From NCBI GenBank assembly GCA_964016885.1, contig OZ024742.1, forward strand, positions 228,904,001 to 228,968,000: 64,000 nt of DNA. Reading direction: 5' to 3'. Below are positions 23,240 through 47,136 of the stretch, in pieces. The notes under the pieces were generated by a model. It was not told the origin of the DNA and ran no database searches. It was given only the letters and a program-made list of their open reading frames with translations. How positions within the stretch are numbered: position 1 is the stretch's first letter; the number at the start of each line of letters is the position of its first letter. A program made the position numbers and the translations under genes. Source of the DNA: Eledone cirrhosa. Taxonomy: Eukaryota.

Positions 23240-23838
23240 TCAAAACAACAAGAGGTAATTTCGGCAGATACAAGCCAGAAACTCTGAAGAATATGGAGTT
23301 TACATACACTAATGTCTTACAAAGATATACGATAATAAAAATGAAGATAAAAATAATAAAATTATAATAACTAAGGATGTAGATAACATTAAGAACCATA
23401 TTACAAATATAGTCCAAAGTCACCAACTTAAATCTAAACAAATTTGGTTATATAGAGCAGGAATTATATACAACACAGTATAATACATTATAATAATAAT
23501 ATATCTATACCAACATTAAAATTCCAAATTAAAAATCAAAAGGTACAATATATACATGTATATATGTGCGCGCACACACACACATATTACAATACACATA
23601 TCTATTTTCCATTACACAGAAATTAAGCCCTATTGGAAGTTTGCACATCAAAAATATCAAAAATAAGCATGGTAATAGTGAAAATAATGTTAATACATCT
23701 ACCCAATATACATGAGGCAATAATATGATATAATTACAAGAAACACTTATAATAAATAATAAACAACAAAATTATATAATACAATACAATATAATAAAGT
23801 AGAATATATAAAGTAGAATATATAATAAACACAATCTA

Positions 23839-23880
<42 letters not shown>

Positions 23881-23883
<3 letters not shown>

Positions 23884-26180
23884 TATAGACATAGAATATT
23901 CGAAAATATTCTGTATGTTTATAATAAACATTTTGAAGACCTAATCGCTATAGAATAGAATACGTCACGTATTACAATTAGATTCTCGATAAAAGCAAGG
24001 GAAGTAATCTACGCGTTTCATTCTCGTTAGAAATCATCAGGACTACATATCCAGTGCTTTTATCGAGAATGACACAGCTAGAGACTTATAGAATACTTAG
24101 CTGTGTACAGGAACTGGTTTGAAAGAGCGGTTGCCGGTCCGGCAGAAATTAGAAATTGGAATAAATGCTCTGAAATAGCGATATATATGTGAATATAGAC
24201 ATAGAATATTCGAAAATATTCTGTATGTTTATAATAAACATTTTGAAGACCTAATCGCTATAGAATAGAATACGTCACGTATTACAATTAGATTCTCGAT
24301 AAAAGCAAGGGAAGTAATCTACGCGTTTCATTCTCGTTAGAAATCATCAGGACTACATATCCAGTGCTTTTATCGAGAATGACACAGCTAGAGACTTATA
24401 GAATACTTAGCTGTGTACAGGAACTGGTTTGAAAGAGCGGTTGCCGGTCCGGCAGAAATTAGAAATTGGAATAAATGCTCTGAAATAGCGATATATATGT
24501 GAATATAGACATAGAATATTCGAAAATATTCTGTATGTTTATAATAAACATTTTGAAGACCTAATCGCTATAGAATAGAATACGTCACGTATTACAATTA
24601 GATTCTCGATAAAAGCAAGGGAAGTAATCTACGCGTTTCATTCTCGTTAGAAATCATCAGGACTACATATCCAGTGCTTTTATCGAGAATGACACAGCTA
24701 GAGACTTATAGAATACTTAGCTGTGTACAGGAACTGGTTTGAAAGAGCGGTTGCCGGTCCGGCAGAAATTAGAAATTGGAATAAATGCTCTGAAATAGCG
24801 ATATATATGTGAATATAGACATAGAATATTCGAAAATATTCTGTATGTTTATAATAAACATTTTGAAGACCTAATCGCTATAGAATAGAATACGTCACGT
24901 ATTACAATTAGATTCTCGATAAAAGCAAGGGAAGTAATCTACGCGTTTCATTCTCGTTAGAAATCATCAGGACTACATATCCAGTGCTTTTATCGAGAAT
25001 GACACAGCTAGAGACTTATAGAATACTTAGCTGTGTACAGGAACTGGTTTGAAAGAGCGGTTGCCGGTCCGGCAGAAATTAGAAATTGGAATAAATGCTC
25101 TGAAATAGCGATATATATGTGAATATAGACATAGAATATTCGAAAATATTCTGTATGTTTATAATAAACATTTTGAAGACCTAATCGCTATAGAATAGAA
25201 TACGTCACGTATTACAATTAGATTCTCGATAAAAGCAAGGGAAGTAATCTACGCGTTTCATTCTCGTTAGAAATCATCAGGACTACATATCCAGTGCTTT
25301 TATCGAGAATGACACAGCTAGAGACTTATAGAATACTTAGCTGTGTACAGGAACTGGTTTGAAAGAGCGGTTGCCGGTCCGGCAGAAATTAGAAATTGGA
25401 ATAAATGCTCTGAAATAGCGATATATATGTGAATATAGACATAGAATATTCGAAAATATTCTGTATGTTTATAATAAACATTTTGAAGACCTAATCGCTA
25501 TAGAATAGAATACGTCACGTATTACAATTAGATTCTCGATAAAAGCAAGGGAAGTAATCTACGCGTTTCATTCTCGTTAGAAATCATCAGGACTACATAT
25601 CCAGTGCTTTTATCGAGAATGACACAGCTAGAGACTTATAGAATACTTAGCTGTGTACAGGAACTGGTTTGAAAGAGCGGTTGCCGGTCTGGCAGAAATT
25701 AGAAATTGGAATAAATGCTCTGAAATAGCGATATATATGTGAATATAGACATAGAATATTCGAAAATATTCTGTATGTTTATAATAAACATTTTGAAGAC
25801 CTAATCGCTATAGAATAGAATACGTCACGTATTACAATTAGATTCTCGATAAAAGCAAGGGAAGTAATCTACGCGTTTCATTCTCGTTAGAAATCATCAG
25901 GACTACATATCCAGTGCTTTTATCGAGAATGACACAGCTAGAGACTTATAGAATACTTAGCTGTGTACAGGAACTGGTTTGAAAGAGCGGTTGCCGGTCC
26001 GGCAGAAATTAGAAATTGGAATAAATGCTCTGAAATAGCGATATATATGTGAATATAGACATAGAATATTCGAAAATATTCTGTATGTTTATAATAAACA
26101 TTTTGAAGACCTAATCGCTATAGAATAGAATACGTCACGTATTACAATTAGATTCTCGATAAAAGCAAGGGAAGTAATCT
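23881..26180 (-). mobile_element. Tandem array of a 310-bp HHR-containing unit (7.4 copies); retrozyme-like insertion in (TA)n
   Basis: The unit start GAATATAGAC falls at 23881, 24191, 24501, 24811, 25121, 25431, 25741 and 26051. I noticed only one difference among copies (C>T at 25690). There is no ORF of 60 aa or more, and each unit has one HHR. Confidence 0.9.
24004..24046 (-). ncRNA. Type I hammerhead ribozyme of the 310-bp unit (identical copies at 24314, 24624, 24934, 25244, 25554, 25864)
   Basis: Minus strand reads gtagtc-CTGATGA-t ttct aacg agaa t-GAAA-cgcg-TA-gattac. The 6-bp stem I is extended by a perfect 16-bp helix (23982-23997 with 24055-24070). Stem III is the palindrome ACGCGT. 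Confidence 0.88.
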
Positions 26181-26205
26181 ATATATATATATATCATAGA
26201 TTGTG

Positions 26206-26899
26206 TTAGAAACTCAAAATAGTATTTTACAATTAAATAGCTCAAGGAAGGGAATCTTTCTGAGCCGTGTAATACAATTGAATATATGAGGGGGATGAAC
26301 ACCGATAGAAGTATACATGTGTATGTAAAGGACCAAGTTAGCTAGGTTGAAAAAATACTAATTTAAAACAATATGGTTTGCCTGTCTCGATTTAAAGTAA
26401 TAAATCAATAAAAATAACAAACCTATATCGGGCAACTGCCGTTTGATACCCGGACAGATCTAAATCTGTTTCGCAAGAATTATTAAGTGAAAGCCACCGT
26501 TCCTGTGCTCTTGTGCGGGTATCCAGGAAATTCGTACCTTTCACTTCAAAAGATCTAAGAAGACTGAACTATGTGTTGATATAAAAGCATATGTTGCAGC
26601 GCCTAGCGCGTCTCATACTCTTGCCGCTAAAAACAGCAGCCGGTTTTATGAGACTAAAGTTAGCTCTACTTATGGATCCGAGAATATCATAAATTGAGTT
26701 AGAAACTCAAAATAGTCTTTTACAATTAAATAGCTCAAGCAAGGGAATCTTTCCGAGCCATGTAATACAATTGAATATATGAGGGGATGAACACCGTTAG
26801 AAGTATACATGTGTACGAATTGCAAATGACCAAGTTAACTAGGTTGAAAAAATACTAATTAAATTAGTATTTTTTCAATCTAGCTAACTTGGTCATTTG

Positions 26900-45562: not shown

Positions 45563-46344
45563 CGGAAACAATGAAACGAAATTTTATTTCCCACACTTAG
45601 TACGGCTGTTACTTAAATATAAGTATGTACACGTACATACATATATGTATACATGTACAGTAGTATGTATATATATATATACATACATGCACACATATAT
45701 ATATGTACGTATGGATTCACCGAACATTTATTATAATGCTCGGTGTGTTTGTAAACAAACATCCCGTATTAAGCCGTAGTATCTATATATAATAATAGTA
45801 ATAAATGTAATGTAAAGACTAAAACCAAAGAGGGCTCGATAAGGATACATATATATCAAATATATAAAAAACCCAGAGCAAATATTTATTAAAATAACAG
45901 ATTAAATTTTAAGCAAAGAATCGCTCTTTCACTCTTAACGGGATCTTCTGAAACTAAAAAAAAAAAAAAAAAAAAAAATCAATCTGTGAACGCAGAAGTA
46001 AATAGTTCGAAACACGTTGAAACCGAAGGAAAACAGGAAGACGATACTTTGGTTCGAGAAGACGTTCCCTGGCAATGAACGAAAAAAAACGAAGATAATA
46101 CGACGTTATGTGCAGCGTAGAGAACAATTACACGCAATTTTAATATATATATTGTTATATTTGGGGAGGGTCATATTGTTATAATATTGCCAGAAATAAT
46201 TATTAAACAAACTCACTGCTAGGTCTGGATTGGTTTTCGCTTCTGTATCTTTCATATCTCCATAGTTAATTTATGAGGCAATCAATGTTTATCATTTATT
46301 GACCAACGGTTAAAAATACAGATATAAATATATATATAGTCTAT

Positions 46345-46375
<31 letters not shown>

Positions 46376-46379
<4 letters not shown>

Positions 46380-46630
46380 TGTATATATATAGTGTATTTT
46401 GCAATACATTGTATGCTTAATTAAAAGCATTTTGAAGACCTTACGCTATTGTTTTAATGTAGCGACAATGTCACTTACTTCAATTTTCAGCAAACAGGGG
46501 AGATAAGCTGACAGAGCTCTCATTCGTACTTCTTGGTACTTATCAAAGCTCACCGCTCCTCCTGTTTGCCGAAAATTATGAATGTTGGATTCTTATAGAA
46601 TTCTAGTAATAATCAGGAACTGATTATACA
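46376..46630 (-). mobile_element. Single diverged relative of the 310-bp HHR unit, between TA runs
   Basis: Shares the ordered motifs TGTATG.TT, CATTTTGAAGACCT, CGCTAT, GTCAC, CTTATAGAAT and CAGGAACTG with the 310-bp unit. HHR-like agct-TTGATAA-gtac caagaa gtac-GAAT-gagagctctg-TC-agct at 46505-46550. Confidence 0.7.
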
Positions 46631-46677
46631 GATATATATATATGATTATATATATATGATTATATATATATGTCTGT

Positions 46678-46945: not shown

Positions 46946-47136
46946 TGTTTCTTCTATTGGCACAAGGCCAGCAATTACTCCAGTACATCACTGGTACTTT
47001 ATTTTATCGACCCCGTAAGGATGAAAGGCAAAGTTAACCTCGGCGGGATTTGAACTCAGACCATAAAGGGGCGTAATTCTATGCTGCAAAGCATGGCGTC
47101 CGACCTTCTACTGATACTGCCAATCTCCTGCCCTTC
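46946..47136 (-). mobile_element. SINE with 9-bp TSD inserted in one arm of an inverted-repeat element (~46918-47370)
   Basis: TSD GGATATAAT at 46937-46945 and 47137-47145. Removing the SINE restores an arm complementary to about 47308-47370. Confidence 0.8.

What the first reader, a model, noticed from the sequence alone, without database searches (positions are those of the whole stretch)
46376..46630. Diverged cousin of the 310-bp unit conserves RNA structure through compensatory changes
Seen: same motif order but largely different sequence. Hairpin ATGTTT-ataat-AAACAT becomes ATGCTT-aattaa-AAGCAT (T-A to C-G). Hairpin GAATATT-cgaa-AATATTC becomes TGTATT-ttgc-AATACA. Both precede an invariant TTTTGAAGACCT. 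The long stem I extension is retained with different sequence (46482-46498 with 46561-46577). The core is the U3-A8 form with GAAT for GAAA, so it is probably dead. Inference: selection acts on a larger RNA fold, not only the HHR. The two hairpins plus GGUCUUCAAAA near the RNA 3' end may be an undescribed RT-recognition or processing signal.
Basis: partly seen in the sequence, partly recalled or inferred. Interest (0 to 1): 0.75.

Follow-up and report, generated by a model that had tools for sequence, protein, structure and literature searches.

The report
Conserved hairpin domain in hammerhead retrozymes
This stretch is a truncated copy of an abundant non-coding repeat that carries a hammerhead ribozyme, and four such repeat families keep the same small RNA fold just before the fixed point where their copies end, which likely marks where a Penelope-type reverse transcriptase starts copying.

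Summary
Window 46376-46631 (RNA sense is the minus strand) is related to the 310-bp unit. It has the same motif order and two hairpins kept through changes on both sides.

It is not a lone diverged cousin. It is a copy of less than one unit from its own abundant ~318-bp family (B), 92-96% identical to other copies. GAAT is private to this copy. The family core is U3/A8 with GAAA.

I found two more families (C and D), and the 310-bp family (A) has 4,212 exact core matches. All four share a ~100-nt domain:
- a closing helix;
- a conserved single strand ending in UUCAAAAUG;
- hairpin 1 and hairpin 2.

Six of its 21 pairs carry compensatory changes between families, and no family majority is mispaired. 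The domain starts 68-70 nt after the hammerhead cut. It ends 12-16 nt before a fixed 3' end, with a second fixed end 26-44 nt further on. Copies sit in (TA)n, with scattered 5' ends and mirror-image arms.

This matches the published Penelope-like-element pattern of two internal reverse-transcription starts with a "tail". That the domain is the enzyme's recognition signal is inferred. It was not found in 50 Penelope loci, and no RNA data were available.

The parts
46376..46631 (-). Copy of less than one unit (~256 of ~318 nt) of retrozyme family B. Its 3' end lies at fixed site A (46376). Its 5' end lies at CUGUAUAAUCAG.
   Evidence: 92-96% identity to at least 71 scored matches; full units continue where this copy stops; site A is the commonest 3' end.
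46339..46375 (.). (TA)n microsatellite abutting the 3' end of the copy. This is the insertion target.
   Evidence: The 3' flank is TA-rich in 34 of 48 family B fragments and 31 of 53 family C fragments.
46391..46410 (-). Hairpin 2: 8 bp in the family, 7 of 8 paired in this copy, with a 4-nt loop.
   Evidence: Four of its 8 pairs change on both sides between families.
46413..46430 (-). Hairpin 1: AUGCUU / AAGCAU, 6 bp.
   Evidence: One pair is U-A in families A, C and D and C-G in B (52 of 57 copies).
46430..46441 (-). Conserved single strand AGGUCUUCAAAA. With the following UG it ends in UUCAAAAUG.
   Evidence: 9 exact matches in the window. UUCAAAAUG is kept in all four families, and the 5' part differs in D.
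46444..46449 (-). 5' strand (AUAGCG) of the closing helix P0. Its partner CGCUAU lies beyond site A and is absent from this copy.
   Evidence: circular folds of A, B and C; 34 copies with ATAGCG and CGCTAT, 11 with ATAGCT and AGCTAT, 0 of 84 mixed.
46482..46577 (-). Type I hammerhead with a long helix I (46482-46498 with 46561-46577). Core UUGAUAA at 46540-46546. Helix II GUAC/GUAC at 46526-46539. GAAU at 46522-46525, where the family has GAAA. Palindromic helix III. Predicted cut between 46510 and 46509.
   Evidence: Rfam HH9 scores only 13.3 bits, E 2.7.
46591..46627 (-). Conserved block UUCUAUAAG in a hairpin loop (46591-46600), and the 8-bp hairpin AUAAUCAG/CUGAUUAU (46609-46627).
23871..26181 (-). 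Family A array: 7.5 units of 310 bp. Its 3' end lies at site A (left edge). Its 5' end lies within 2 nt of the hammerhead cut (right edge). There are eight copies of the domain, e.g. 24189-24255.
   Evidence: period 310, 99% matches. (8 model hits of 73.6-73.7 bits). (junctions read directly).

Best explanation
The stretch is a copy, shorter than one unit, of an abundant non-coding hammerhead repeat (a non-LTR retrozyme), and the two hairpins belong to a ~100-nt RNA domain that is likely the place where a Penelope-like reverse transcriptase binds and is positioned to start copying.

Shown here:
- Four families (A to D) share the domain. In order it has a closing helix P0, a conserved single strand ending in UUCAAAAUG, hairpin 1, hairpin 2, a TA-rich tract, and the P0 return strand.
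- The helices are kept by compensatory changes, while the hairpin 2 loop and the spacers differ between families.
- The domain sits at a constant distance from the hammerhead cut.
- The 3' ends of copies fall at two fixed sites: site A 12-16 nt after hairpin 2, and site B 26-44 nt further.
- The 5' ends are scattered.
- Insertions lie in (TA)n. Some are mirror-image pairs with one arm ending at each site.

Inferred:
- The endonuclease of a Penelope-like element nicks (TA)n, and its reverse transcriptase, held by the domain, starts inside the RNA at site A or site B.
- It copies towards the 5' end of a multimeric or circular template. This would give sub-unit copies such as this one, or arrays such as the 310-bp one.
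- Selection acts on the transcribed source copies. Inserted copies then decay.
For: Structure:
- On 18 sequences, 95.4% of 262 cells are paired, against 87.8% (sd 1.0) in shuffles, with 0 of 500 shuffles reaching it. Slid controls give 21.8-54.2%. Five of 15 pairs change on both sides.
- On 150 copies (A 8, B 57, C 49, D 36), every family majority is a standard pair. The variable pairs are U-A/C-G, A-U/G-U/C-G, A-U/U-A, A-U/G-C and U-A/C-G.
- All 10 stem positions that vary between families fall into 5 pairs. By my own arithmetic, C(15,5)/C(30,10) is about 1e-4, ignoring phylogeny.
- P0 has G-C in A to C and U-A in D, with 0 of 84 copies mixed.
- G-U in 41 of 49 family C copies fits the hammerhead strand only.
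- Hairpins 1 and 2 appear in local folds and in circular whole-unit folds of B, C and D.

Geometry:
- Cut to domain 68-70 nt, to site A 129-133 nt, to site B 155-174 nt, on one copy of each family.

Ends:
- 42 of 48 (B) and 45 of 53 (C) 3' ends fall at site A or B, while 5' ends are spread.
- In a two-armed family A insertion, one arm ends at site A and the other at site B, with a 35-nt tail.

Abundance:
- 3,017, 2,699 and 1,493 first-look candidates for B, C and D.
- 4,212 exact family A core matches against 0 in the control.
- GIY-YIG endonuclease: 10,597 first-look candidates.

Literature:
- A purified Penelope-like enzyme starts reverse transcription at two adjacent internal sites. The stretch between them is the 30-40-bp tail. 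The starts lie 85-92 nt after the hammerhead cut (my subtraction). The protein-binding motif is placed in that region, and both DNA strands are cut and extended (PMC11167929, main text read).
- (TA)n bias, tandem and inverted insertions and the tail are described in PMC8557442 (passages).
Against: - No autonomous element with the domain was found. The model hit only separate retrozyme insertions in 30 loci of 3.2 kb and 20 loci of 9.9 kb around GIY-YIG matches.
- A Penelope family with its own hammerhead and two fixed 3' ends (L124 and others) has a different sequence there and no notable fold (z 0.1).
- At least five other hammerhead repeat families seen in those loci lack the domain. It is lineage-specific at best.
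- There are only four families, so few independent changes.
- Retrozyme RNAs are in general predicted to be highly self-paired (PMC7229834, passages). Conserved helices alone do not show a reverse-transcriptase role.
- Any signal next to a fixed 3' end would be retained by 3'-anchored copying.
- The 5' ends do not cluster at the hammerhead cut (2 of 48, 2 of 53).
- Rfam hammerhead models do not reach their thresholds.
Confidence: 0.5

Rival explanations
1. The helices are part of the general compact fold of a retrozyme circular RNA. They would serve stability, ligation or ribozyme folding, with no specific role in reverse-transcriptase recognition. Their closeness to the 3' ends would be incidental.
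For: Retrozyme circular RNAs are predicted to be stable and highly self-paired (PMC7229834, passages). Other helices of the unit also covary: 14 of 79 predicted pairs carry compensatory changes. Whole-unit circular folds reach -68 to -87 kcal/mol.
Against: The spacing from the cut and from site A is constant in four families, although the intervening sequence differs. The hairpin 2 loop and the spacers vary, while the single strand UUCAAAAUG is kept. The domain lies where the published enzyme study places the binding motif.
Confidence: 0.3
2. The block is a relic of the 5' end of the parent element's coding region, a start codon in the context CAAAAUG. It would be conserved by descent only.
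For: UUCAAAAUG holds an AUG 78-81 nt after the cut. In the published element the reading frame starts beside the hammerhead. In families A, B and C the frame from this AUG stays open to a UAA near site B (my reading).
Against: Family D stops after 4 codons, and the peptides of A and B differ after the first few residues (my reading). Paired compensatory changes point to RNA structure rather than coding. No reading frame follows in any of the 150 copies.
Confidence: 0.1
3. The block works at the DNA level, as a promoter or terminator piece or a cruciform, or in the first-strand cDNA as a fold-back primer.
For: Units carry CCAAT and TATAAG-like conserved blocks elsewhere. Inverted-arm junctions occur near the domain.
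Against: A G-U pair in 41 of 49 family C copies would be C-A on the other strand. Compensatory changes are not expected for a protein-binding DNA site.
Confidence: 0.05

Closest known systems
Metazoan non-LTR retrozymes (Cervera and de la Pena 2020, PMC7229834; Li, Clavereau and Pollet 2026, bioRxiv 10.64898/2026.07.22.740005)
   Same: Both are non-coding, AT-rich repeats of about 310-330 bp. They occur in tandem and dispersed, each unit carrying a type I hammerhead with a short palindromic helix III. Both coexist with Penelope-like elements.
   Different: In the passages and sections I read, those papers define no covarying element outside the ribozyme and map no fixed 3' ends. Here a ~100-nt domain and two end sites are defined. 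Family B has a U3/A8 core. Circular RNA was not tested here.
Internal initiation of reverse transcription and the 'tail' of Penelope-like elements (Frangieh et al. 2024, PMC11167929; Craig et al. 2021, PMC8557442)
   Same: Both show two adjacent fixed 3' ends a few tens of nt apart, downstream of a hammerhead. Targets are AT-rich or (TA)n. Insertions are tandem and mirror-image.
   Different: There the RNA is that of an autonomous element from a lizard, and the start lies in an AC-rich stem-loop inside the reading frame. No structure was defined by covariation. Here the carriers are non-coding, the distance from the cut is 129-133 nt rather than 85-92 nt, and the enzyme is unidentified.
3' stem-loops of LINE/SINE pairs and the R2 3' UTR recognised by their reverse transcriptases (recalled; only the listing of PMC11194090 was seen)
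   Same: A structured RNA element beside the start of reverse transcription is shared by non-autonomous elements.
   Different: Those enzymes start at the RNA 3' end. Here the start is internal, at two sites, and sharing with an autonomous partner was not shown.

Membership tests
Type I hammerhead ribozyme | Conserved core CUGANGA ... GAAA ... UH in type I order. | tested here: met
   Families A, C and D have CUGAUGA and GAAA: read, with 11 of 13 and 10 of 13 in C. Family B has UUGAUAA (39 of 43) with GAAA (38 of 43). The window copy has GAAU, so the core is not met in that copy.
Type I hammerhead ribozyme | Helices I, II and III around the core, supported by covariation. | tested here: met
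   Helices I and II differ in sequence but pair in all four families. Helix III is short and palindromic, the dimer type described in PMC4209133 (passages).
Type I hammerhead ribozyme | Match to the Rfam covariance models at the gathering score. | tested here: not met
   There were 0 matches in the window. HH9 scored 13.3 bits against 52 for the cousin. Nothing was found for the 310-bp unit at E up to 10, or for B, C and D loci at E up to 0.01.
Type I hammerhead ribozyme | Self-cleavage. | not testable with these tools
   Needs a transcription and cleavage assay.
Metazoan non-LTR retrozymes | Short (170-400 bp) non-coding tandem repeats with one hammerhead each, low GC, and no LTR, PBS or PPT. 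| tested here: met
   Period 310, 7.5 copies. Units are 313-333 bp. GC of the domain is 0.19-0.32. No long reading frame was seen in the units read.
Metazoan non-LTR retrozymes | Expression as small circular RNAs. | not testable with these tools
   No run on record as RNA was listed for this genome.
Elements mobilised by Penelope-like elements | (TA)n or AT-rich target, tandem and inverted arms, fixed 3' ends with a one-sided tail of some tens of bp, and variable 5' ends. | tested here: met
   compared with PMC8557442 and PMC11167929.
Elements mobilised by Penelope-like elements | Sequence shared with the terminal region of an autonomous element in the same genome. | tested here: not met
   The domain model found none in 50 GIY-YIG loci, 360,042 bases. 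This is a small sample of more than 10,000 candidates.

The most novel reading that the evidence does not exclude
The P0, UUCAAAAUG, hairpin 1 and hairpin 2 domain is the cis-acting signal that a clade of Penelope-like, telomerase-related reverse transcriptases reads to choose its two internal start sites. It would be the first such signal defined base by base through covariation, and non-coding ribozyme repeats have multiplied to thousands of copies by carrying it.
Probability: 0.35. Interest if true: 0.7.

Novelty: new variant of a known kind. Interest (0 to 1): 0.5.

Why it matters
How Penelope-like reverse transcriptases pick their template and start site is largely open. The one biochemical study I read places a binding motif in a ~150-nt region but does not define it.

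Four natural families with compensatory changes give a concrete, mutable candidate: three helices and a 9-nt single strand at a fixed distance from two mapped start sites. That makes the question testable with disruption and rescue mutants. It would also explain how ribozyme repeats borrow the enzyme.

If the domain turns out to be only structural, the result is still a clean annotation of an abundant repeat superfamily.

Tried and rejected
- **RNA evidence.** No RNA holder was listed. Three runs of unknown kind from one study hold about half of the sampled words. No reads were laid.
- **Genome-wide model search.** The own genome does not accept an RNA model. I searched fetched loci instead.
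- **DNA search with the 310-bp unit or a 181-nt part.** No candidates, not even the query itself. An exact 34-mer pattern then gave 4,212 matches. The blank therefore reflects skipped common words or simple repeats, not rarity.
- **Candidate fifth family at L036:516-582 (33 bits).** The upstream part belongs to an unrelated abundant SINE-like repeat whose copies stop before the domain. I treat it as one old truncated copy.
- **Weak model hits (23-26 bits) in Penelope loci.** These are TA microsatellites.
- **Long-range pairing of GGUCUUC with GAG-CACC** (RNAalifold). It shows no covariation and does not fit family D by my reading. I dropped it in favour of P0.
- **The bulged hairpin 'RYTC-stem-loop-stem-TN-GARY'** reported by earlier notes just past element ends. 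My pattern scan found none in units A to D.
- **Small hairpins a few nt after sites A and B**. They are present but show no clear covariation.
- **Earlier-findings look-up by sequence.** Nothing found.
- **Literature.** Searches found no paper in the held library that describes this domain or cephalopod retrozymes.

Full report
**What is at the coordinates.** The hammerhead polarity makes the minus strand the RNA sense. On that strand, 46631-46376 reads in this order:
- an 8-bp hairpin AUAAUCAG/CUGAUUAT-type stem;
- the block UUCUAUAAG;
- a 17-bp extension of helix I;
- the core UUGAUAA;
- helix II GUAC/GUAC;
- GAAU;
- a palindromic helix III and the predicted cut after GUC;
- the return strand of helix I;
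- a small hairpin;
- AUAGCG;
- AGGUCUUCAAAA;
- hairpin 1 and hairpin 2;
- ...ACAUUCA, abutting (TA)n.

The 310-bp array (23871-26181; period 310, 7.5 copies, 99% matches) has the same order. Its core is canonical: CUGAUGA ... GAAA, then ACGCGU, then A, cut, GAUUAC. The two align with 152 identical columns. The 12-mer occurs 9 times in the window against 0.5 expected.

**It is a family member, not a lone cousin.**
- A search of the window's own genome (3.0 Gb) with 46376-46630 gave 3,017 first-look candidates. Forty were scored, giving 71 matches. Full-length matches were 88-96% identical, mostly 92-96%, and lay on many chromosomes.
- Flanks show that other copies continue for about 60 nt more, and that the unit is 313-333 bp, often in tandem.
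- I call this family B and the 310-bp unit family A.
- In family B, 39 of 43 cores read UUGAUAA and 38 of 43 read GAAA. GAAUG occurs once, in the window's copy.
- So U3/A8 is the founder state of family B, and GAAU is a private mutation.

**More families.**
- A diverged relative beside a degraded Penelope-like element (L032; 77% identity to B over 244 nt) led to family C. It has 2,699 candidates and copies of 93-96% identity.
- A still more distant relative in a flank led to family D. It has 1,493 candidates and copies of 78-86% identity. Its least decayed copies show a canonical core, and helix III is the palindrome AUGCAU.
- Family A is very abundant. A 34-nt piece of its core has 1,950 + 2,262 exact matches against 0 for the control pattern. 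They lie in arrays of period 310, often in mirror-image pairs.
- Helices I and II differ in sequence between the four families but pair in each. This, rather than any Rfam score, supports the hammerhead assignment. Rfam models do not reach their thresholds.

**The conserved domain.**
- I aligned 18 copies of the region and wrote hairpin 1 (7 pairs) and hairpin 2 (8 pairs) as a structure.
- 95.4% of 262 cells are paired, against 87.8% (sd 1.0) in shuffles, and 0 of 500 shuffles reach it.
- Slid controls give 21.8-54.2%. Five pairs change on both sides.
- A covariance model built from this alignment found 162 matches in 83 loci. The best 150 split into A 8, B 57, C 49 and D 36.
- Every family majority is a standard pair.
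- The pairs that differ between families are U-A/C-G in hairpin 1, and A-U/G-U/C-G, A-U/U-A, A-U/G-C and U-A/C-G in hairpin 2.
- The loop of hairpin 2 differs in every family, and that of hairpin 1 differs in length and sequence.
- All 10 stem positions that vary at family level fall into 5 pairs. Placing 10 variable positions at random among 30 would do that with probability about 1e-4. This is my own arithmetic and ignores phylogeny.
- Within the old family D, pairs break mainly by CpG decay. That is expected if selection acts on source copies only.
- The G-U pair in 41 of 49 family C copies fits the hammerhead strand and not its complement.

**Closing helix.**
- Circular folds of whole units add a closing helix, P0. 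AUAGCG just before the conserved single strand pairs with CGCUAU just after the TA-rich tract.
- In family D the strands are AUAGCU and AGCUAU.
- Of 84 copies that reach far enough, 34 have the first pair of strands, 11 have the second and none is mixed. The rest have one strand mutated or missing.
- The conserved single strand is UUCAAAAUG in all four families. Its 5' part (AGGUC in A and B) differs in D.

**Where copies end.**
- I mapped fragments onto a unit. 3' ends fall in two narrow sites in 42 of 48 family B fragments and 45 of 53 family C fragments.
- Site A lies in the TA-rich tract after ...AUUCA. Site B is about 30 nt further.
- 5' ends are spread over the unit. Only 2 of 48 (B) and 2 of 53 (C) lie near the hammerhead cut.
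- The 3' flank is TA-rich in 34 of 48 (B) and 31 of 53 (C) fragments.
- Measured on one copy per family, the distances from the cut are 68-70 nt to the domain, 129-133 nt to site A and 155-174 nt to site B.
- In a two-armed family A insertion the arms meet 5' to 5'. One arm ends at site A and the other at site B, 35 nt further. Family C shows the same.
- The window's array ends at site A on the left and within 2 nt of the hammerhead cut on the right.
- The window's family B copy ends at site A and stops after 256 nt.

**Comparison with what is known.**
- Non-LTR retrozymes of animals are 170-400-bp tandem repeats. They carry type I hammerheads that probably act as dimers and are expressed as circular RNAs. 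Penelope-like elements were proposed as their mobilisers (PMC7229834, passages; PMC4209133, passages).
- A 2026 preprint relates them to the terminal repeats of such elements in frogs (abstract and section 14).
- Penelope-like elements prefer (TA)n or other microsatellites. They form tandem and inverted insertions and carry a 30-40-bp tail at one end (PMC8557442, passages).
- A purified enzyme from a lizard cuts and extends both DNA strands. It starts reverse transcription at two adjacent internal sites whose interval is the tail.
- Its starts are 111-118 nt into the reading frame, with the hammerhead cut at +26. It needs RNA from +20 to +172, where the authors place the binding motif. It does not need ribozyme cleavage (PMC11167929, main text).
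- The families here show the same layout. The covarying domain occupies the interval between cut and start. This is the basis for the inferred role.

**What speaks against that role.**
- The model found the domain in none of 50 loci around GIY-YIG endonuclease matches, apart from three unrelated retrozyme insertions. Weak hits were microsatellites.
- One Penelope family in those loci has its own minimal hammerhead after the reading frame. Its two alternative 3' ends lie about 126 and 180 nt after the cut (my count). Its sequence differs from the domain and it has no notable fold.
- Five further hammerhead repeat families seen there lack the domain.
- The domain is therefore specific to one superfamily, and its enzyme is unknown.
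- The sample is small against 10,597 endonuclease candidates.
- No RNA data could be used.

**Earlier notes of this scan.** These are unchecked AI leads.
- They describe retrozymes in this genome, two-armed insertions ending at two fixed sites, and a different bulged hairpin just past the ends in another Penelope clade.
- I confirmed the two-site pattern for family A.
- I did not find that bulged hairpin in families A to D.
- One note pointed me to PMC11167929.

**Verdict.** The new part is a defined, covarying ~100-nt domain beside two mapped copying starts. Its function is inferred and not shown.

Noticed in passing
window 23828-23841 and 26194-26207: The (TA)n that holds the 310-bp array is itself flanked by a 14-nt inverted repeat (AACACAATCTATGA ... 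TCATAGATTGTGTT). The target was therefore a palindrome centred on a TA microsatellite.
   Followed up: no
window 24085-24094 and 46591-46600; L013, L064: The block UUCUAUAAG (TATAAG-like) sits in a hairpin loop and is conserved in families A to C. A CCAAT lies about 70 nt upstream. A Penelope family (L124 and others) has CCAAT and TATAAAAGG before its hammerhead. Each unit may carry its own promoter.
   Followed up: no
L124, L125, L128, L136, L140, L060 (7 copies): An autonomous-type Penelope-like family has a minimal hammerhead (CUGAAGA ... GAAA, GUAC palindrome) downstream of the reading frame. It has two alternative 3' ends about 126 and 180 nt after the predicted cut, and an AC-rich hairpin in the tail.
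   Followed up: partly
L123/L126/L130, L131 (period ~490), L138 (period 466), L127/L128, L133/L041: At least five further hammerhead-bearing repeat families occur in this genome. They lack the domain, and their (TA)n junctions lie at other distances from the cut.
   Followed up: partly
family B copies (L002-L030): The hammerhead core has U3 and A8 in 39 of 43 copies. This is a paired change of the two core positions that the lizard study treats as interacting. Whether the variant cleaves is unknown.
   Followed up: partly
window 46620-46665: At the 5' junction of the copy, the motif GATTATATATATAT recurs three times. This looks like stuttering or microhomology between the end of the cDNA and the (TA)n.
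   Followed up: no
units of families A, B and C (e.g. window 24150-24245, minus strand): A frame of about 30 codons opens at the conserved AUG and ends at a UAA near site B in families A, B and C. The peptides are not conserved, and family D stops after 4 codons.
   Followed up: partly
L036:306-500 and window about 47040-47070: A very abundant SINE-like repeat with a tRNA-like segment (4,489 first-look candidates) lies next to retrozyme fragments. A similar tRNA-like segment lies just right of the finding.
   Followed up: no
L008, L011, L021, L063, L079, L083: Many short copies, or inner ends of arms, begin about 10-20 nt before the domain, at ...AAAAC(A/C)(A/G)AUAGCG. In family B, 6 of 48 5' ends fall there. 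This may be a preferred stop or template-switch point.
   Followed up: no
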